Shown: positions 3,281 through 9,630 of the stretch, piece after piece
Layout of the letters: every line of letters starts with the position of its first letter
Position numbering within the stretch: the stretch's first letter is position 1
Virus record (IMG/VR): IMGVR_UViG_3300027969_000088
Direction: 5' to 3' (one strand)
Length of the DNA stretch: 20,000 bases
Origin: an uncultured virus (IMG/VR IMGVR_UViG_3300027969_000088)
Taxonomy: Duplodnaviria; Heunggongvirae; Uroviricota; Caudoviricetes
The notes under the pieces: model-generated
Database searches by the model: none
What the model saw: the letters and a program-made list of their open reading frames with translations, nothing else
Told to the model about the DNA's origin: nothing
Position numbers and translations under genes: made by a program

Positions 3281-3703
3281 ATGTCTAGGAAAAGAGATAG
3301 TAAATATGACGATGCCTACCAACTTTATTTAGATGGTATGTCATTACAGCAAGTTGCTAGTTCTATTAGTGTTACGAGACAATGTGTTTTCAAAGCATTT
3401 AAAAAAAGAAATTTTATTCTGAGAACTCCTAATTTTCAACCTCATCAGTATTTTGATGGTCATAAATTTTCTCTTAGAAATCATGGTTATTACGAAAAAA
3501 CTACCGGTAATAGAGAATTGATGCATCGTTATGTTTGGGAAAAACACAATGGTCCAATTCTTGAAAAACATGACATACATCACAAGAATCATGATAGAAG
3601 TGATAATAGAATTGAAAATTTAGAAATGCTTGGCCATAAAGAACACGCTAAAAAATACGCAACAGGAAATAACCAATATACAAAGAAAAATGATTCACTT
3701 TAG
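3281..3703 (+). CDS. HNH homing endonuclease with N-terminal HTH
   Basis: MHRYVWEKHNGPI...IHHKNHDRSDNRIENLE (HNH_3-like); N-terminal GMSLQQVASSISVTRQCV HTH. Confidence 0.9.
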   Translation: MSRKRDSKYDDAYQLYLDGMSLQQVASSISVTRQCVFKAFKKRNFILRTPNFQPHQYFDGHKFSLRNHGYYEKTTGNRELMHRYVWEKHNGPILEKHDIHHKNHDRSDNRIENLEMLGHKEHAKKYATGNNQYTKKNDSL

Positions 3704-4757: not shown

Positions 4758-5049
4758 GAAGCAGTATCTCAGATACATGAAGACATTTGTCTGGGCTATT
4801 AAGAAAGATACTGTTTCTTTGGCCGATGCAGCTGAGAAGAGAGTAATGATTAACTATCCAGTGGATGCAACTACGGTAGAAGATGCCATTAACTTTGTAG
4901 AAACGGGTGAGGGCCTCAGAGATACCAATGTCTCCACCACAGACCTATATGCTATGATGGAAGCAATGAAACATTTACAAATTAAGGAAGAACCTAAAGT
5001 AGAAGAAAAACCAAAAAGAAAAAGAATTAAGAAAAATGACAGCAAATAA
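4738..5049 (+). CDS. Hypothetical protein
   Basis: Operonic ORF overlapping both neighbours; basic C-terminus. Confidence 0.65.
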   Translation: MNSKIDKKQYLRYMKTFVWAIKKDTVSLADAAEKRVMINYPVDATTVEDAINFVETGEGLRDTNVSTTDLYAMMEAMKHLQIKEEPKVEEKPKRKRIKKNDSK

Positions 5050-5377
5050 ATTTATTGGGTTACTATTACATAGTAGAGATGCGATGCATTTAGCCCATTG
5101 GAACACAAAATCTTTTTCAGAGCATGATGCATTGAATAAGTACTACGATGGTATACTTGAATTAACAGACGAGTTTACTGAAGTATTGTTTGGTCAAAAA
5201 GGACGTTTAGATATTTCTGTACCAGAAGTAGAAATAGAAGAACCTGTAGAGCACCTTACAGACTTTAGAGATATTGTTGAAAATGAAAGAGATAATTATT
5301 CTACTAATCTTCAGAATACTCTAGACGAAGTACTTTCTTTAATTGACCAAACACTATACAGACTAACACTTAAATAA
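5036..5377 (+). CDS. Ferritin/Dps-like four-helix phage protein
   Basis: HLAHWNTKSFSEHDALNKYYD...DEFTE...G and LQN..DE...LI..T.Y.L patterns. Confidence 0.7.
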   Translation: MTANKFIGLLLHSRDAMHLAHWNTKSFSEHDALNKYYDGILELTDEFTEVLFGQKGRLDISVPEVEIEEPVEHLTDFRDIVENERDNYSTNLQNTLDEVLSLIDQTLYRLTLK

Positions 5378-5378
5378 T

Positions 5379-5672
5379 ATGGAAAGTAATTATAAAGTAA
5401 GGGGTCTCAGAGTTCTATTAACTCCACCCCTAATTGTAAAATCTGCTATACAACTAGATGCAAAACTAGAGGAGCAGATAATGGATGAGCAAATGAAAAA
5501 ATGGGGCTCACTAGAAGTATTTGCTGTAGGTGATGAAGTAAATGATATTTCAGCAGGGGATAGAGTTTATGTCAATCCTATGTTCTTAAGAAATTCTGAA
5601 CACGTGTTAATTGATGGGGAGGATAAGATAATTGTTCGTGCTCCGGATATTGCTGTGATTTGGTATAAATAA
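5379..5672 (+). CDS. groES: GroES-like co-chaperonin
   Basis: RVLL...EVFAVG.EV..I.AGDRVY...IDGE...IVR..DI. Confidence 0.75.
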   Translation: MESNYKVRGLRVLLTPPLIVKSAIQLDAKLEEQIMDEQMKKWGSLEVFAVGDEVNDISAGDRVYVNPMFLRNSEHVLIDGEDKIIVRAPDIAVIWYK

Positions 5673-5685
5673 TTAAAAGAAATTA

Positions 5686-5799
5686 GCCCCGTTGGCCAGG
5701 GGATCGTAAAATACAGATCGGCATTTTAACAATGCCCAAGACATCTGTTCTCATCGTATAGGAGATAGGGTTAGCCTTCCCGACATCGTCTAAAAAGGC
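5686..5799 (+). ncRNA. Multi-hairpin structured RNA of unknown family
   Basis: Consecutive stems CCCC/GGGG, GATC/GATC, GGCATT/AATGCC, CTGTTCTC/GAGATAG and GCCTT/AAGGC; no ORF. Confidence 0.45.
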
Positions 5800-5805
5800 A
5801 AACAT

Positions 5806-5880
5806 AGTCAGGTGGATTAATATGGTAAATCATTCAATGGGAAACTGTTGAAAGATACAGGTTCGAATCCTGTCCGACTA
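5806..5880 (+). ncRNA. tRNA-like RNA 1 (anticodon loop replaced by GAAA tetraloop)
   Basis: Acceptor AGTCAGG/CC-GACT, D arm GATT/AATC with GG loop, stem TTCAATGG-GAAA-CTGTTGAA, T arm ACAGG-TTCGAAT-CCTGT. Confidence 0.75.
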
Positions 5881-6020
5881 CACCGGTAATGGGAAGGAAG
5901 CCCACGTTAAACTAAACCGTTGGAGGCTGTCGAGCCTTATGGATCGGTGTACCTAGATGTAAAATTGGTGCTATTGGTCTCTGAAGAATAGGGAACACGG
6001 GTAACTGCAAGATAAGTTAC
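5880..6020 (+). ncRNA. Structured spacer RNA between tRNA-like elements
   Basis: Closing stem ACACCGGT/ATCGGTGT (5880-5950) encloses TGGG/CCCA and GAGGCT/AGCCTT hairpins; then CTATT/AATAG and GTAACT/AGTTAC hairpins. Confidence 0.45.
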
Positions 6021-6025
6021 AAAAT

Positions 6026-6100
6026 AGGTGCATTGATCGTTTAGCGGTTAAGACATATCGTAAGATAAGACGCAGGTTCGAATCCTGGGTAGGTGCACCT
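6026..6100 (+). ncRNA. tRNA-like RNA 2 (anticodon arm reduced to 4 bp plus GTAA tetraloop)
   Basis: AGGTGCA/TGCACCT terminal stem, D arm GTTT-AGCGGTTA-AGAC, TATC-GTAA-GATA, T arm CAGG-TTCGAAT-CCTG. Confidence 0.7.
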
Positions 6101-6105
6101 TAAAT

Positions 6106-6231
6106 CGGAGAGTGGCGGAAGGTTAGGGGTAACCCTGACGTGTTAGACGCTGCTAGCTAAATATAGCAATTTGGGATTAGCCCTCTAACCATAGAGTGCC
6201 CAAAATACAGGTTAGAGTCCTGTCTCTCTGA
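6106..6231 (+). ncRNA. tRNA-like RNA 3 (expanded, with a hairpin inserted in the D loop)
   Basis: Acceptor CGGAGAG/CTCTCTG; D stem GCG/CGC containing GTTAGGG-GTAA-CCCTGAC; TGCTA/TAGCA arm with an 8-nt loop; long variable arm; T arm ACAGG-TTAGAGT-CCTGT. Confidence 0.65.
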
Positions 6232-6315
6232 CAAACAACAAAGGGGCATCAATGTCCCTCTGTATACATAATATCAGTTCAAACCTGACAAATAAACTAT
6301 GAAAGCAATATTAGA

Positions 6316-6939
6316 ATGATTGGAATTTATAAAATAGTATCTCCAATAGGTAGAGTATATGTAGGACAATCTACAAATATAGAAAAAAGATGGAATCACT
6401 ATAGATCACTAGACTGTAAGGACCAACAAAAAATATATAATTCTTTTGTTAAGTACGGGGTTTGTAGTCATATTTTTTTAATAATTGAAGAGTGTGATGT
6501 TAGCGATTTGAACGAAAGAGAAAGATATTGGCAAGAATATTACGATGTTGTAAAAAAAGGATTAAATTGCAAAATGGTTTTTACAAATGAAAAATCTGGT
6601 TTTTTATGCGAAGAAACAAAGAAAAAAATAAGCAAAGCAAATAAAGGAAGATCTAATAGAAAGAATTATAACCATTCAGAAGAAACAAAGAGAAAAATAA
6701 GTGAAGCCAATAAAGGAAAAAAAGCAACTGGTTTTTTAGGAAATCACTCAGAAGAAACAAAAAGAAAAATAAGTGAAGCCAATAAAGGAAGAATTGTTTC
6801 TGACGAACACAAATTAAAATTATCATTAGCAGCTATTGGAAGGCCAAGCAAGTTAAAAGGTAGAATTTTTACAGAAGAAGAAAGAAAAACAATGTATTCA
6901 ACAAGGAAAAAAATAAAAAATATATGCAAGCTCAATTAA
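6316..6939 (+). CDS. GIY-YIG homing endonuclease with NUMOD3 repeats
   Basis: GIYKI...YVGQS..I..RW..Y; RERYW; repeated HSEETKRKISEANKG. Confidence 0.93.
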   Translation: MIGIYKIVSPIGRVYVGQSTNIEKRWNHYRSLDCKDQQKIYNSFVKYGVCSHIFLIIEECDVSDLNERERYWQEYYDVVKKGLNCKMVFTNEKSGFLCEETKKKISKANKGRSNRKNYNHSEETKRKISEANKGKKATGFLGNHSEETKRKISEANKGRIVSDEHKLKLSLAAIGRPSKLKGRIFTEEERKTMYSTRKKIKNICKLN

Positions 6940-7148
6940 CCTTCAATCTTCCAGAAGACCACACAGATTTTGAAGATGCTGTCAATGGACAGAGATGGTC
7001 TTTAGCAATGTGGGAACTAGATCAACACCTTCGGTCTCAGACTAAACATCCTCCAGAAGGAATGTCAGATGATACATGGAAGGCATTAGATGATACTAGA
7101 GAGAAACTATATGAGATACTAAATGAAAACGCCCTTAAGCTCAGATAG
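6924..7148 (+). CDS. Conserved small phage hypothetical protein (FNLPED family)
   Basis: LTFNLPED..DF..A.NG..W....W.LDQ.LR. Confidence 0.75.
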   Translation: MQAQLTFNLPEDHTDFEDAVNGQRWSLAMWELDQHLRSQTKHPPEGMSDDTWKALDDTREKLYEILNENALKLR

Positions 7149-7168
7149 AGCAAACAAAAGACACTAAA

Positions 7169-7683
7169 GTAAACCTATAGGCTTATGTTTGATTTTTGTG
7201 ATTTTTTCACAATAAAGTGCATTATAAGGAACAAAACAATACATTTAAGGAACTTTTATGACACATTAAGGAAGATTAGTGCTTTTTAAGGCACTTTTCT
7301 TTGTTCACGAAATCGTGTACATAAATGAATAGTGAACAATAAGGTCTCAGACTTATATTGAGTATTTATAAGGTAATGACCTAATATCTGGTATTGCGAT
7401 ATGCGATATTATATCTCCTAGGGTATATATAAAAAGCCTTGACATAAAAATATCTCATATTGCGATATTATACCTTTTAGGGTATAGATAATTTACTCCA
7501 GTATGTTTTTATTACCGATAGGGTATAATTGTGCAATATATCATACATTAACTCGGTTTTTTACCGATAAGGAGTAATATATCATACGTACGATGATTAC
7601 GTACACTTCGTAACGAACTATTCGTAATGATAAAAAAGTTTAGTTTTACTTTAGTCGGTCTCGAAATTTACCGAGGTGAGACC
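7169..7683. repeat. Array of diverse, mostly duplicated imperfect palindromes (operator-like)
   Basis: About 10 motif families, most present in 2-4 adjacent copies; listed in findings. Confidence 0.65.
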
Positions 7684-7695
7684 AAAAAATTTTTA

Positions 7696-7840
7696 GTGGG
7701 GGTTACAAAACTTTACAAATAAATACACGGGGGTTAAAAACAAGCCCCCCCCTTCTGTTAAAACTTGTGCGAGGTGTGAAGGTGATACGTTCCGAAAAGT
7801 CAGGTTGCCACCCAAAAAAAATATCCCCCCCTTTTTCCCT
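7696..7840. other. G/C homopolymer-rich segment, candidate genome terminus or packaging site
   Basis: G5 7698-7702, G5 7729-7733, C8 7745-7752 and A8-TAT-C7-T5 7814-7836 in AT-rich non-coding DNA, upstream of IHF-like sites and the small-gene cluster. Confidence 0.35.
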
Positions 7841-8004
7841 ATCTCGAAGCAAATAACTGATTGATTATCAATAACTTAACAGCCTAAATTGAATTAATTT
7901 GAACACAAAAAACGTATTCGCACTACTTAACTGATTGATATGCAATGAATTAAAATGTTCACACTCGTTCGATTGTGTACACTATCAATAAGTTAACTGC
8001 TCTA

Positions 8005-8404
8005 TTTAGAATTATTCTAAACAAAGCTCTTGCGTACACACGCACACACACACGCCTACACGTGCGCACATACACGCACCCTGGCGCACACACACGCACG
8101 TTATAGGGATTTTTTACCACTTCAGCAAATTTATTTGCTATTTATAATTATTCTAAATTACTTTGAATATTTTTTTATTTGAATTTTTTTGCCTATGCGC
8201 ATACACACGCACTCGCTGGTGCACACACGTACGCACGTTAACGGTTATTTTACTCACAATTGCAAATTTATTTTTTGCTATTTGATATCGATTATTTATT
8301 TTATTTGTTTAAACGAACAAAAATATTTTTAAAATTTATTTAATTGATTATCAATAACTTATAATTTATTTTACATTTTTTTTTAAATTCATAATGATTC
8401 TAAA
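8005..8404. promoter_or_regulatory. Three Fur/PerR-like inverted-repeat boxes
   Basis: TTTAGAATTATTCTAAA 8005-8021 (perfect 8-1-8), TTTATAATTATTCTAAA 8141-8157, TTCATAATGATTCTAAA 8388-8404. Confidence 0.5.
8031..8283. repeat. Alternating purine-pyrimidine (CA/CG) tracts within a degenerate ~80-90 bp direct repeat
   Basis: GCGCA.A.ACACGCAC..CTGG.GCACACAC..CGCACGTTA...GCAAATTTATTT(TTT)GCTATTT at about 8064-8143 and 8197-8283. Confidence 0.8.
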
Positions 8405-8583
8405 TAACATAATTATTTTATTGATTATCAGTAACTTACATTTTACATTTTTTTGCTAACTCATTGATAATCAACTATGTTTACCTATCGTTTCAAAAAA
8501 TTGCCTTGTAACTCATTGACTATCAATACCCTTTTGTTATAACTAATTGTTTATCAGTAACTTACGATTAAATTTTTGTGTTG

Positions 8584-8591
8584 TATGTTTG
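8584..8591 (+). promoter_or_regulatory. Putative early promoter -7 element
   Basis: TATGTTTG fits TAnnTTTG, right after the IHF-like array; no clean -33 TTTG at canonical spacing. Confidence 0.5.
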
Positions 8592-8619
8592 CATCGTTGG
8601 TTTAACACACTAACAACTT

Positions 8620-9051
8620 CAAATCACGTTTGCATAAAGTGTTTACACTACACAACGTGAGATTTATAAAAGCAGTAATAAAAACTGTTTTTTGTGAGAT
8701 GTGGACTCAAAGAAAAAATACCATTGGTGACGTAAAATCTATGTGCAAACGTAGTCCTACCTAAGTGGACGGGCATCCCTCTTGTGACCAAGTCAAAAAT
8801 GAGGGTGTATAATCGTGTAGCGTCCGAGTAATCGGGGAACGCCCGTGTTATATGCTTTCTTGAGGGGACTATAAGAAAACAGAGAGAAAACTGTTTTTGT
8901 GTAAGTGGCGTATAACTACGTCCTATTAGTCTATGATGGTTCAACCACTTCAATGTGAGAAACCTAAAAAATAATGTGCCGTAAAAACTACCTTGTTATA
9001 CATAAAGTTTGACATTGTATGTAGGTAACCTCGTGAGGTTAACAAGGTAGC
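8620..9051 (+). ncRNA. Large structured RNA or leader of unknown family
   Basis: No plus-strand ORF in the track; many nested stems, including 11-bp CTACCTTGTTA/TAACAAGGTAG, ACGGGC/GCCCGT and CCGA-GTAA-TCGG. Confidence 0.55.
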
Positions 9052-9065
9052 AAACTTTTAAACAT

Positions 9066-9455
9066 ATGAAAAACACACAAATCAAAATCGAAAACAACGG
9101 GACGTTCATCAAGTTTGACCTTGACACTAACAACACTAAAGACAACAACAAAGTAAGGCGAGCTTTAGTGTATCGTTTCTTTGACTATTACAACACTATG
9201 CGAGTACTGGGGGCAAAAGGTTTCAAGGGGAACGAGCCTTTTGTAGTCACTATTTTAATTGACGGGCAGTTACAATTTACGTCTGCAAATTTAACGACTC
9301 AAGTACAAACAAGGCTTAAGTTAATTAATAACCCAAAAGGTAGGGAACGTTTCGACTTCGCATTGGATACTATTATCGCAATGGCACAACGTTTCGAGAG
9401 TACAAATGTTGATGCAATTATCAAAGATGTTGCGACTCGTTTGTTAGAAGCATAA
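9066..9455 (+). CDS. Hypothetical protein, first gene of the putative early region
   Basis: 129-aa ORF with A-rich leader, followed by a terminator. Confidence 0.8.
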   Translation: MKNTQIKIENNGTFIKFDLDTNNTKDNNKVRRALVYRFFDYYNTMRVLGAKGFKGNEPFVVTILIDGQLQFTSANLTTQVQTRLKLINNPKGRERFDFALDTIIAMAQRFESTNVDAIIKDVATRLLEA

Positions 9456-9475: not shown

Positions 9476-9507
9476 ACCCCTATGGTAATTATCATAGGGG
9501 TTTTTTT
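9476..9507 (+). terminator. Rho-independent terminator
   Basis: ACCCCTATGGT-AATT-ATCATAGGGG followed by T7. Confidence 0.85.
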
Positions 9508-9578: not shown

Positions 9579-9630
9579 TGTAAATTCACAAATCGGTGTG
9601 CCGTACGTTCGAGTCGTACATTTACAGCCA
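9579..9630 (+). ncRNA. 52-nt mini-tRNA lacking the entire anticodon arm, with encoded CCA
   Basis: TGTAAAT/ATTTACA 7-bp acceptor, CAC-AAATCGGT-GTG D arm, CC linker, GTACG-TTCGAGT-CGTAC T arm, G-CCA end. Confidence 0.75.

What the first reader, a model, noticed from the sequence alone, without database searches (positions are those of the whole stretch)
5806..6231. Cluster of three tRNA-shaped RNAs without a canonical anticodon loop
Seen: element 1 caps an 8-bp stem with GAAA (5833-5852) and element 2 caps a 4-bp stem with GTAA (6056-6067), both exactly in the anticodon-arm position. Element 3 has an 8-nt loop there, a GTAA-capped 7-bp hairpin inserted in the D loop and a long variable arm. 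All keep acceptor, D and T arms. Two separate GNRA tetraloop replacements look like selection for a stable non-decoding fold rather than decay. Inference: with the mini-tRNA at 9579, a family of phage tRNA mimics that anticodon nucleases could not cut. They may sequester tRNA-binding defence or stress proteins (compare Y RNA tRNA-like domains) or punctuate processing of the RNAs between them.
Basis: partly seen in the sequence, partly recalled or inferred. Interest (0 to 1): 0.82.

Follow-up and report, generated by a model that had tools for sequence, protein, structure and literature searches.

The report
Anticodon-less tRNA look-alikes in phage RNA array
Three tRNA-shaped RNAs that cannot read codons sit in a phage's non-coding RNA array, and two of them belong to a large, apparently uncatalogued group that lake phages place behind a conserved knotted leader RNA, probably as cutting and stabilising handles for neighbouring RNAs.

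Summary
Rfam's tRNA model hits all three elements: 5806-5880 at 41.1 bits, 6106-6231 at 26.4 and 6030-6097 at 23.3. None has a 7-nt anticodon loop.

They are modules of a non-coding array, about 5686-6259. Element 1 is an optional insert between a conserved pseudoknotted leader (5686-5805) and a second structured RNA (5881-6020). In that slot, relatives carry a true tRNA-Gln, other odd tRNA look-alikes, or nothing.

The leader occurs in 114 distinct phage or metagenome copies, mostly from lakes. Covariation supports its fold, and it matches no Rfam family. A tRNA or tRNA look-alike usually follows it.

- Elements 1 and 3 belong to families that keep the acceptor, D and T arms but put anything in the anticodon position, from 3-nt-loop hairpins to inserts over 100 nt.
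- GNRA capping is not conserved.
- Element 2 has no relative and may be decaying.

The closest known are the "tRNA-like stable RNAs" of the phage T5 tRNA cluster and T4 species I and II, whose functions are unknown.

Most likely they are RNase P/RNase Z processing and stabilising handles. This is inferred, not shown. The decoy idea is untested.

The parts
5686..5805 (+). Conserved leader RNA ('5' module'). Helices: P1 5687-5690/5699-5702; P2 5713-5718/5743-5748 with inner hairpin 5720-5724/5732-5736; hairpin 5749-5752/5762-5765; P3 5768-5770/5779-5781. The P3 loop 5774-5778 pairs with 5795-5799 to form a pseudoknot. An A-rich tail ends right at element 1.
   Evidence: 93 distinct copies aligned. 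99.1% of 1859 cells are paired, against 94.4% in shuffles. 8 of 20 pairs changed on both sides (0 of 500 shuffles reach this). Slid controls give 39-58% paired. No Rfam family matches it.
5806..5880 (+). Element 1, a tRNA-shaped RNA. Acceptor AGTCAGG/TCCGACT with an A.C mismatch; D arm GATT..AATC; T arm ACAGG TTCGAAT CCTGT. The anticodon arm is replaced by an 8-bp stem plus GAAA (5833-5852).
   Evidence: Rfam tRNA 41.1 bits. ARAGORN 'tRNA-???' gaaa. The slot is polymorphic in relatives: tRNA-Gln in L006, an 88-nt look-alike in L016, nothing in L019/L029/L074.
5881..6020 (+). Second structured RNA ('3' module'). Long-range helix 5881-5888/5945-5952; hairpin 5923-5928/5933-5938; terminal hairpin 6000-6005/6014-6019.
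   Evidence: 92-99% identical in L006, L016, L019 and L020. Compensatory changes in two hairpins are seen in alignment A1 and in L016. Only a handful of distinct copies were available, so no statistical test was run.
6026..6100 (+). Element 2, a weak tRNA-shaped RNA (Infernal match 6030-6097). The anticodon arm is replaced by a 4-bp stem plus GTAA (6056-6067). The T stem is imperfect and the acceptor register ambiguous.
   Evidence: Rfam tRNA 23.3 bits, below the cut-off. Folding z-score -3.39. No homologue in any fetched locus.
6106..6231 (+). Element 3, a tRNA-framed RNA with two insert positions. Acceptor CGGAGAG/CTCTCTG; D-loop hairpin 6122-6139; 8-nt loop in the anticodon position; long branched variable arm; T arm 6207-6223.
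   Evidence: Rfam tRNA 26.4 bits. An identical copy sits directly behind the leader in L034 (same contig as L091). Copies 95-97% identical occur in L016, L037 and L152. Family covariation.
6242..6259 (+). Conserved hairpin that closes the array. It is not followed by a T run.
   Evidence: The stretch 6232-6300 is 91-96% identical in L034, L054, L016 and L020. No terminator-like site on the + strand.
6316..6939 (+). GIY-YIG/NUMOD3 homing endonuclease gene. It is inserted after codon 6 of a small gene: remnant at 6299-6319, intact allele at 6924-7148.
   Evidence: PHROG 314 E 4e-30. Pfam GIY-YIG and NUMOD3. Absent from L006, where the small gene is uninterrupted.
9579..9628 (+). Mini tRNA-like element: acceptor stem, T arm and an encoded GCCA, with no D or anticodon arm.
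   Evidence: Sequence. A positional counterpart with a different sequence occurs in L007 and L013. Folding z-score only -0.47. No Rfam or ARAGORN call.

Best explanation
The three elements are tRNA-derived RNAs that no longer decode. They are modules of one phage non-coding RNA array, about 5686-6259.

They keep the tRNA 'upper body': the acceptor/T-arm helix and the D/T elbow. From established knowledge, that is what RNase P, RNase Z, 3' trimming enzymes and the CCA-adding enzyme recognise. The anticodon-arm position is a free slot.

Most likely the host tRNA-processing enzymes cut the array transcript at each element. This would release and stabilise the RNAs lying between them.
- The pseudoknotted leader's A-rich 3' tail would end exactly at element 1 and be tucked into the pseudoknot.
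- The second structured RNA would end in a hairpin just before element 2.
- The downstream message would be separated from the structured RNAs upstream of it.

Shown: the fold families, their conservation and covariation, the modular presence and absence of elements, and the absence of usable anticodon loops.

Inferred: the cleavage itself, the stability of the products, and what the released RNAs do.

Element 2 may simply be a decaying copy.
For: (1) tRNA-model matches without anticodon loops.

(2) Element 1's slot is modular, while its flanks are nearly identical to the window's in L006 (alignment A1) and, for the 3' module, 92-99% identical across relatives.
- L006 has tRNA-Gln(ttg) there.
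- L016 has an 88-nt look-alike with an 8-nt loop.
- L020 has a look-alike with another centre.
- L019/L029/L074 have nothing, so leader and 3' module abut.

(3) The leader is a real structured RNA: 99.1% of cells paired against 94.4% in shuffles, and 8 of 20 pairs changed on both sides.

(4) Of 114 distinct leader copies, 5 were too short downstream and 6 had no end my pattern could find. My scanner found a tRNA or look-alike starting within 12 nt of the leader's end in 41, and 13-260 nt downstream in 32.

(5) Across 86 non-canonical look-alikes, the T loop is TTCGAAT, TTCGATT or TTCGAGT in 71, and GG lies in the D region in 80. Meanwhile the region between D and T arms in element 1's family ranges from 6 to 132 nt.

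(6) Acceptor stems differ with full compensation between elements that share the same insert: AGTCAGG/CCTGACT against GATTAGG/CCTAATC. In element 3's family, 8 of 22 pairs changed on both sides.

(7) Rfam's tRNA model scores 23 such elements at 29.9-50.4 bits in 20 loci.

(8) True tRNAs occupy the same slot behind the leader in some relatives: Met, Leu, Gln.

(9) Precedent: the phage T5 record annotates RNA1, RNA2 and RNA3 as 'tRNA-like stable RNA' inside its tRNA cluster, beside an HNH homing endonuclease gene. T4's roughly 1.75-kb tRNA-cluster transcript is the precursor of 8 tRNAs, species I and II RNAs and segB (PMC2330249, passage read).

(10) Contigs from two lake metatranscriptome libraries carry the leader joined to the 3' module. 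This is a weak hint of expression in relatives.
Against: - No RNA end was mapped. The RNA-library evidence consists of contigs, which cannot show ends, could be DNA carry-over, and come from relatives that lack element 1.
- One of those contigs runs across the boundary from the 3' module into a look-alike, so it shows either an unprocessed precursor or DNA.
- Processing needs only an acceptor/T minihelix. It does not explain why the acceptor sequence AGTCAGG is nearly invariant in 50 relatives, nor why the D-loop hairpin stem of element 3's family never varies.
- 9 leader copies are followed directly by a gene with no look-alike, so the leader does not strictly need one.
- Element 1 has an acceptor mismatch and element 3 lacks C56, which could weaken recognition.
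- Element 2 has no relatives.
Confidence: 0.5

Rival explanations
1. The look-alikes are themselves the functional products. On this view a constant tRNA-Leu-like frame acts as a natural 'tRNA scaffold': it stabilises and displays swappable inserts (aptamers or regulatory domains) that act on host or phage factors. Elements 1 and 2 would be nearly empty frames.
For: - Inserts fall into recurring, conserved sequence families found in many contigs. One example is a 56-nt insert in at least 12 distinct 105-nt elements.
- The same insert occurs in frames with different acceptor stems.
- Phage T5 RNA1 has the same build: a Leu-like D arm and a long central insert, scoring 24 bits on the tRNA model.
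- An earlier scan note describes a 'two-slot' Leu-tRNA-framed family (e1-6107528).
Against: - Many members, including elements 1 and 2, carry only a short capped hairpin with no room for a functional insert.
- No target was found. The complement of element 3's 8-nt loop occurs twice in the window, itself included, against 1.07 expected.
Confidence: 0.18
2. One reading: the elements are decoys or sponges that bind tRNA-directed defence or stress proteins but cannot be cut in the anticodon loop.
For: - tRNA-cutting defences and phage tRNA countermeasures are established. For van den Berg 2023 (PMC10264068) and Azam 2024 (PMC11555353) only the abstracts were seen, in the listing. [quoted passage not shown]
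- A GIY-YIG endonuclease gene lies 85 nt after element 3.
- The frame is of the long-variable-arm tRNA type.
Against: - No defence or anti-defence gene was recognised beside the array.
- Nucleases that read the anticodon loop would not recognise an RNA that lacks it.
- The GNRA caps that prompted the idea are not conserved.
- Nothing here tests binding.
Confidence: 0.12
3. The elements are decaying tRNA pseudogenes left by endonuclease-driven turnover of a phage tRNA cluster, with no function of their own.
For: - Element 2 scores below the tRNA cut-off, has stem defects and has no homologue.
- Element 1 has a 1-nt deletion in its acceptor stem.
- Element 3 has lost C56.
- The region is plastic and flanked by homing endonuclease genes.
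Against: - The families of elements 1 and 3 are conserved across many contigs with compensatory changes.
- An identical copy of element 3 occurs in a different context.
- The replacement hairpins are perfectly paired, not eroded.
Confidence: 0.1
4. The elements are leucine-accepting tRNA-like RNAs that are charged but cannot decode. They would feed a tRNA-dependent transferase or perturb sensing of tRNA charging.
For: - The D arm of element 1's family (GCGG AATGGTAGA CGC) resembles that of true tRNA-Leu(TAA) genes in the same kind of locus (L138, L095).
- The discriminator base is A in 53 of 86 look-alikes.
- From memory: bacterial LeuRS does not read the anticodon.
Against: - The window's own element 1 has a different D arm (GATT..AATC) and an acceptor mismatch.
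- No transferase gene was found nearby.
- Purely inferential.
Confidence: 0.05

Closest known systems
Phage T5 RNA1, RNA2 and RNA3. Record NC_005859 annotates RNA1 and RNA2 as 'tRNA-like stable RNA with unknown functions' and RNA3 as 'putative tRNA-like RNA'. The neighbouring RNAI, RNAIII, RNAIV and RNA2H are annotated as stable RNAs.
   Same: - They lie inside a phage tRNA cluster next to a homing endonuclease gene.
- RNA1 (144 nt) has a tRNA-Leu-like D arm, a T arm, paired ends and a long insert where the anticodon and variable arms should be. It scores below the cut-off on the tRNA model (24 bits), and ARAGORN does not call it.
- Other stable RNAs sit between the tRNAs, as the leader and 3' module do here.
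   Different: - No detectable sequence relationship was found: blastn of the window's locus against the phage collection found nothing.
- T5 has no counterpart of the conserved leader as far as was checked.
- The window's elements 1 and 2 carry minimal capped hairpins rather than inserts.
- The function of the T5 RNAs is itself unknown.
Phage T4 species I and II stable RNAs (rnaC, rnaD) in the tRNA cluster with segB
   Same: They are co-transcribed with 8 tRNAs and a GIY-YIG homing endonuclease gene as one precursor of about 1.75 kb (PMC2330249, passage read). A GIY-YIG gene also abuts the array here.
   Different: Their tRNA-like ends and RNase P processing are recalled, not tested.
MALAT1/mascRNA, and the tRNA-linked RNAs (TMERs) of murine gammaherpesvirus 68. 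Both are recalled from memory.
   Same: The working logic matches. A non-aminoacylated tRNA-like element recruits RNase P or RNase Z to define the end of a neighbouring non-coding RNA. In MALAT1 the A-rich 3' end made by RNase P is protected by a folded structure. Here the leader's A-rich tail is part of a pseudoknot that ends at element 1.
   Different: Those are eukaryotic or animal-virus systems with no homology to this one. Cleavage here is not shown.
Engineered 'tRNA scaffold' for expressing recombinant RNA (recalled)
   Same: The anticodon arm is replaced by an arbitrary insert, while the acceptor, D and T arms are kept so that the cell processes and stabilises the RNA.
   Different: The scaffold is a laboratory design. 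This would be a natural analogue.
Phage tRNAs with altered anticodon loops that evade anticodon nucleases (PMC10264068; abstract seen in a search listing only)
   Same: Both are phage-encoded tRNA genes changed in the anticodon loop.
   Different: Those tRNAs still decode. The elements here have no usable anticodon loop.
YrlA / bacterial Y RNA tRNA-like domain (recalled)
   Same: A tRNA-like elbow without a decoding anticodon arm.
   Different: In Y RNAs the ends lie on the Ro-binding stem, not on the acceptor stem. No Y RNA or YrlA family was matched.

Membership tests
Canonical tRNA (Rfam RF00005) | Score at or above the curated cut-off of 29 bits | tested here: inconclusive
   Element 1 scores 41.1 bits (met). 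Element 3 scores 26.4 and element 2 scores 23.3 (not met).
Canonical tRNA (Rfam RF00005) | 5-bp anticodon stem with a 7-nt loop carrying U33 and a purine at 37 | tested here: not met
   Loops are 4 nt (GAAA), 4 nt (GTAA) and 8 nt (GCTAAATA). ARAGORN reports 'tRNA-???' for element 1 and nothing for elements 2 and 3.
Canonical tRNA (Rfam RF00005) | 7-bp acceptor stem, D arm with GG, and T arm with a TTCRANY loop | tested here: inconclusive
   All are present, each with a defect: element 1 has an A.C mismatch, element 2 a T-stem G.G and an ambiguous register, element 3 a TTAGAGT loop.
Phage tRNA-like stable RNAs (T5 RNA1-3, T4 species I and II) | Encoded within a phage tRNA or homing-endonuclease cluster | tested here: met
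   A GIY-YIG gene lies at 6316-6939 and an HNH gene at 3281-3703. True tRNAs occupy the same slot in relatives. T5 layout.
Phage tRNA-like stable RNAs (T5 RNA1-3, T4 species I and II) | tRNA-like paired ends and T arm, but no functional anticodon arm | tested here: met
   for the window. for T5 RNA1.
Phage tRNA-like stable RNAs (T5 RNA1-3, T4 species I and II) | Accumulates as a discrete stable RNA cut from a tRNA precursor | not testable with these tools
   Only contigs from RNA libraries were available, and they cannot show ends.
tmRNA | tRNA-like domain plus a tag reading frame, as detected by ARAGORN | tested here: not met
   No tmRNA was called in the window.
Known ribozyme, riboswitch or large ornate RNA families (twister, hammerhead, HDV-like, T-box, GOLLD, ROOL, Y RNA), considered for the leader and the 3' module | Match to the Rfam covariance model | tested here: not met
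   No such family appears at E up to 10 on 5673-6270 or on a typical leader copy, L143 270-415. Only one weak abiF match (28.5 bits, E 0.44) was seen, on L016.

The most novel reading that the evidence does not exclude
Lake phages run a natural RNA display and processing platform. A conserved pseudoknotted leader heads an array. A constant frame derived from tRNA-Leu is handled by the host's tRNA enzymes. That frame carries swappable inserts that act on host factors, for example as sponges for defence nucleases that cut long-variable-arm tRNAs. Elements 1 and 2, with their capped stubs, would then be uncuttable blank versions kept because the frame alone binds the target.
Probability: 0.12. 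Interest if true: 0.85.

Novelty: new variant of a known kind. Interest (0 to 1): 0.62.

Why it matters
Phage tRNA clusters have long been known to hold 'stable RNAs of unknown function' (T4 species I and II, T5 RNA1-3), and that question has stayed open for decades.

This locus shows the phenomenon is not a quirk of two coliphages. More than a hundred distinct uncultured-phage loci share a covariation-supported leader RNA. It is usually followed by tRNA-framed RNAs that keep the tRNA upper body and treat the anticodon arm as a free slot.

This gives a large comparative data set and precise, testable cleavage sites. It also warns annotators that 'undetermined' or 'pseudo' tRNA calls in phages may be a separate RNA class.

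If the processing model is right, it would be a bacterial-virus parallel to RNase P-made RNA ends in eukaryotes.

Tried and rejected
- The window's own assembly is not held. The nearest record, G001, is a 13.7-kb fragment of the same virus that starts inside element 3, so it added nothing.
- blastn of 5600-6400 against cultured phage records found no match. tblastn with two window proteins found only distant relatives (29-42% identity) from mixed hosts, so the host stays unknown.
- Relatives found through the DUF5856 gene (L003-L005) had no tRNA-like elements.
- The more distant relatives L007-L014 have a normal tRNA-Thr in front of the small gene and lack the leader.
- A scan of one genome per prokaryote species for a 19-nt leader motif gave two chance matches without the rest of the leader (L041, L042).
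- Parts of the window without cover in the RNA-library contigs say nothing. The 'joints' that skip element 1 match the DNA arrangement of relatives (L019-type), so they are not splicing.
- No sigma-70-like promoter stood out: 4 sites against 8.0 expected. No + strand terminator lies in 5000-7300.
- A long-range helix between the leader's P3 loop and the 3' module was dropped. Most leaders have no 3' module, and P3 with its pseudoknot is supported by covariation.
- My own rule for a 'canonical anticodon arm' was crude. It recognised only 7 of the 15 true tRNAs that ARAGORN typed, so the ARAGORN counts are the ones to use.
- My element scanner missed the window's elements 1 and 2 and several look-alikes visible by eye, so its counts are lower bounds.
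- One row of alignment A4 (labelled L138x) used wrongly guessed coordinates and is unrelated sequence. A4 was used only for viewing.
- The bacterial Schlafen paper (PMC13056530, passages read) reports anticodon-arm cleavage and does not bear on long-variable-arm tRNAs.
- Antisense idea: the complement of element 3's loop is not enriched in the window.
- Fremin et al. 2023 (PMC10690425, passages read) list about 8,500 candidate structured RNAs from IMG/VR, including tRNA-like ones. I did not see their supplementary tables, so this leader or these families may already be in that list.
- I found no paper describing this leader or these families with searches. That is four keyword searches, not proof of absence.
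Full report
**What is there**

The 643-nt gene-free stretch between the small gene ending at 5672 and the start codon at 6299 holds three tRNA-shaped sequences.

- ARAGORN reports only 5805-5881, as 'tRNA-???' with a four-letter 'anticodon' gaaa.
- Rfam's tRNA model matches all three when the stretch is searched alone: 5806-5880 at 41.1 bits (cut-off 29), 6106-6231 at 26.4 bits and 6030-6097 at 23.3 bits. No other family matches at E up to 10.
Element 3 also has an 8-nt loop in the anticodon position and a long branched variable arm.

Each element also has a blemish.
- Element 1: an A.C mismatch in the acceptor stem.
- Element 2: an ambiguous acceptor register and an imperfect T stem.
- Element 3: A instead of C56 in the T loop.

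Folding energies are only moderately better than shuffles, with z-scores of -1.77, -3.39 and -2.77.

**Context in the window**

The window is phage DNA. It encodes a RecE-like exonuclease, an HNH endonuclease, methyltransferases, a serine recombinase and a glucosaminidase.

A GIY-YIG/NUMOD3 homing endonuclease gene (6316-6939) starts 85 nt after element 3. It has split a small gene: the remnant is at 6299-6319 and an intact allele at 6924-7148. The relative L006 lacks the endonuclease and has the small gene whole.

**Relatives change the picture**

L006 encodes an upstream protein 88% identical to the window's. Its DNA on both sides of element 1 is almost identical to the window's (5686-5805 and 5881-6020). 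At exactly element 1's place, however, it has a normal tRNA-Gln(ttg), and it lacks elements 2 and 3.

Other arrangements of the same slot:
- L016 has the same flanks around an 88-nt look-alike. It shares element 1's acceptor and T arm but has a different D arm, a 5-bp stem with an 8-nt loop, and a long variable arm. It is followed by a 97%-identical copy of element 3 and a further look-alike.
- L020 has yet another centre.
- In L019/L029/L074 the two flanks abut with nothing between them.
- L034 has the leader followed directly by an identical copy of element 3.

So element 1 is an optional cassette between two structured RNAs, and the whole region is a modular array.

**The leader**

Motif scans recovered 138 copies of the upstream flank, 116 distinct. 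Two of the distinct ones are chance matches from bacterial genomes without the rest of the motif, which leaves 114 real copies. Most come from lake and other freshwater metagenomes, with some marine ones.

I aligned 93 distinct copies. Three further copies with a long insertion in P2 were left out.

The alignment supports four helices plus a pseudoknot between the P3 loop and the 3' tail.
- 99.1% of 1859 cells are paired, against 94.4 ± 0.2% in shuffles (0 of 500 reach the observed value).
- 8 of 20 pairs changed on both sides, against a shuffled mean of 5.0 (0 of 500).
- 91 cells changed on both sides, against 18.7.
- Sliding the partners gives 39-58% paired.

Single-stranded stretches are invariant. 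No Rfam family matches the leader, even when 146 nt are searched alone.

Of the 114 real distinct copies:
- 5 were too short downstream, and in 6 my pattern found no leader end;
- 41 have a tRNA or look-alike starting within 12 nt of the leader's end;
- 32 have one 13-260 nt downstream, with other conserved RNA modules between;
- 3 have one further away;
- 27 have none by my scanner. By eye, at least 8 of these 27 do hold look-alikes the scanner missed, and 9 run straight into a gene.

**The look-alike families**

My scanner requires a T arm, at least 6 of 7 acceptor pairs, U8 and a D stem. It found 101 distinct elements in these loci.

| Group | Number | Typed by ARAGORN |
|---|---|---|
| Ordinary tRNAs (Leu-taa, Arg-acg, Arg-tct, Trp, Met, Gln) | 15 | 15 |
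| Element 1's family (acceptor AGTCAGG/CCTGACT or close) | 50 | 6 |
| Element 3's family (D-loop hairpin) | 10 | 1 |
| Other non-canonical elements | 26 | 0 |

Element 1's family:
- Most have a tRNA-Leu-like D arm.
- The region between D and T arms runs from 6 to 132 nt.
- The 6 typed members carry anticodons gta, atg, gac, aaa, tgg and aat. A further 5 are called '???' and 39 are not called.

Element 3's family:
- Acceptor and T stems vary with compensation: 99.1% of 220 cells are paired, and 8 of 22 pairs changed on both sides.
- The D stem and the D-loop hairpin stem never vary.
- The hairpin's cap is GTAA in 2, ATGT in 5 and ATAT in 3.

Across the 86 non-canonical elements, the T loop is TTCGAAT, TTCGATT or TTCGAGT in 71, and GG is present in the D region of 80.

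As a check that does not depend on my scanner, Rfam's tRNA model found 23 matches of 29.9-50.4 bits in 20 of the loci. True tRNAs in related loci score 57-72 bits.

Inserts form recurring sequence families, and the same insert occurs in frames whose acceptor stems differ by fully compensated changes.

Element 1's GAAA hairpin and the whole of element 2 have no homologue in any locus. The cap is therefore not what is conserved. What is conserved is the tRNA upper body, with a free slot below it.

**Expression**

One search for sequencing runs found three freshwater libraries holding parts of the stretch. Contigs from two metatranscriptome libraries of different studies carry the leader joined to the 3' module without element 1. 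One of them continues into an L019-type look-alike.

This is the DNA arrangement of relatives, so it is not splicing. Contigs cannot show ends, and DNA carry-over is possible. It is no more than a hint that the array is transcribed.

**How it most likely works**

From established knowledge, the acceptor/T-arm helix and the elbow are the parts of a tRNA recognised by RNase P, RNase Z and the CCA-adding enzyme. The anticodon arm is not needed for that recognition.

The anatomy fits tRNA-type punctuation.
- The leader's A-rich tail, half of a pseudoknot, ends 0-3 nt before a tRNA or look-alike.
- The 3' module ends in a hairpin 5 nt before element 2.
- Elements 2 and 3 are 5-8 nt apart.
- In several relatives the last look-alike lies some 5-20 nt before a start codon, in an A/T-rich spacer.

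I therefore favour processing and stabilising handles, with 0.5 confidence. The cleavage is inferred, not shown.

The model leaves two things unexplained: the near-invariant acceptor sequence of element 1's family and the invariant D-loop hairpin. These keep the rivals open: stable RNAs functional in their own right on a natural 'tRNA scaffold', decoys for tRNA-directed defences, or leucine-accepting non-decoders. Element 2 alone could well be a decaying copy.

**Comparison with what is known**

The phage T5 record annotates RNA1 (144 nt) and RNA2 (125 nt) as 'tRNA-like stable RNA with unknown functions' and RNA3 (73 nt) as 'putative tRNA-like RNA'. Four more stable RNAs lie inside its tRNA cluster beside an HNH endonuclease gene. 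RNA1 has a Leu-like D arm and a long central insert. It scores 24 bits on the tRNA model and is not called by ARAGORN.

T4's tRNA-cluster transcript is the precursor of 8 tRNAs, species I and II RNAs and the GIY-YIG gene segB (PMC2330249, passage read). SegB-type endonucleases are statistically associated with tRNA genes (PMC13096335, abstract and section 10 read).

The window's locus is the same kind of thing, with no detectable sequence relationship. It adds a conserved leader and two look-alike families that I did not find described. The supplementary catalogue of PMC10690425 was not seen.

Earlier notes of this scan describe related finds in other lake-phage windows.
- One describes a 'two-slot' Leu-tRNA-framed family.
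- One describes a pseudoknotted RNA family beside tRNAs that shares words with this leader.
- One speaks of 'twister-type' ribozymes in an island that shares words with the leader. I could not see which part was meant, and Rfam gives no twister match on the leader.

**Verdict**

- The 'selected non-decoding fold' reading is supported for elements 1 and 3 and open for element 2.
- The GNRA argument fails.
- The decoy mechanism is untested.
- The punctuation idea fits best.

It is a new variant of an old, still unexplained kind.

Noticed in passing
window 7150-9060: Nearly 2 kb without a convincing gene. It holds repeated 'TTGATTATCAATAACTTA'-type units, C-tracts and runs of CACACGCAC-like repeats. 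The same kind of region follows the small gene in L007, L013 and L021. It may be a replication origin or a genome-end region.
   Followed up: no
window 6299-6319, 6316-6939, 6924-7148: The GIY-YIG endonuclease gene starts inside the stop codon of a six-codon remnant (MKAILE*) of the small gene. It is followed by a full copy of that gene with a different N-terminus (MQAQLTF...). This looks like the footprint of endonuclease-driven allele replacement.
   Followed up: partly
L016 1443-1462 and 1722-1741; L006 4815-4834; also L023, L035, L061: A small hairpin with a conserved GAAAGA-type loop and covarying stems (ACGGG/CCCGT, GCTCG/CGAGC, CCTCG/CGAGG). It recurs 3-5 nt before the 5' ends of tRNAs and look-alikes. 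In L006 it is followed by a T run, like a terminator.
   Followed up: no
L039, L025, L030, L069, L142 and others; L023, L049, L051, L063 and others: Two further conserved RNA modules recur between the leader and the look-alikes. One begins CTATTAGTAAACTTTAGTACCC. The other begins GTGTTGTTCCCTTGAGAAAGGAA and ends in a GAGGACTTCTCATCCTC hairpin. No Rfam family matched them in the loci scanned.
   Followed up: partly
L055 and L155, about 60-130 nt after the leader: A second, shorter unit repeats only the leader's last hairpin and pseudoknot tail (AAGTTAGCCTTCTT...TCTAAAAAGGCA), again ending right at a look-alike. This suggests the pseudoknot-plus-A-tail is the part tied to the tRNA-like 5' end.
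   Followed up: no
window 9478-9500: A strong terminator-like hairpin with a T run lies after the gene 9066-9455. It gives weak chance-level matches to the PyrR and NsiR1 families.
   Followed up: no
L109, about 565-780 nt after the leader core: A 214-nt tRNA-framed element with a different, longer D-loop insert and a 155-nt centre. It is the largest member seen.
   Followed up: no
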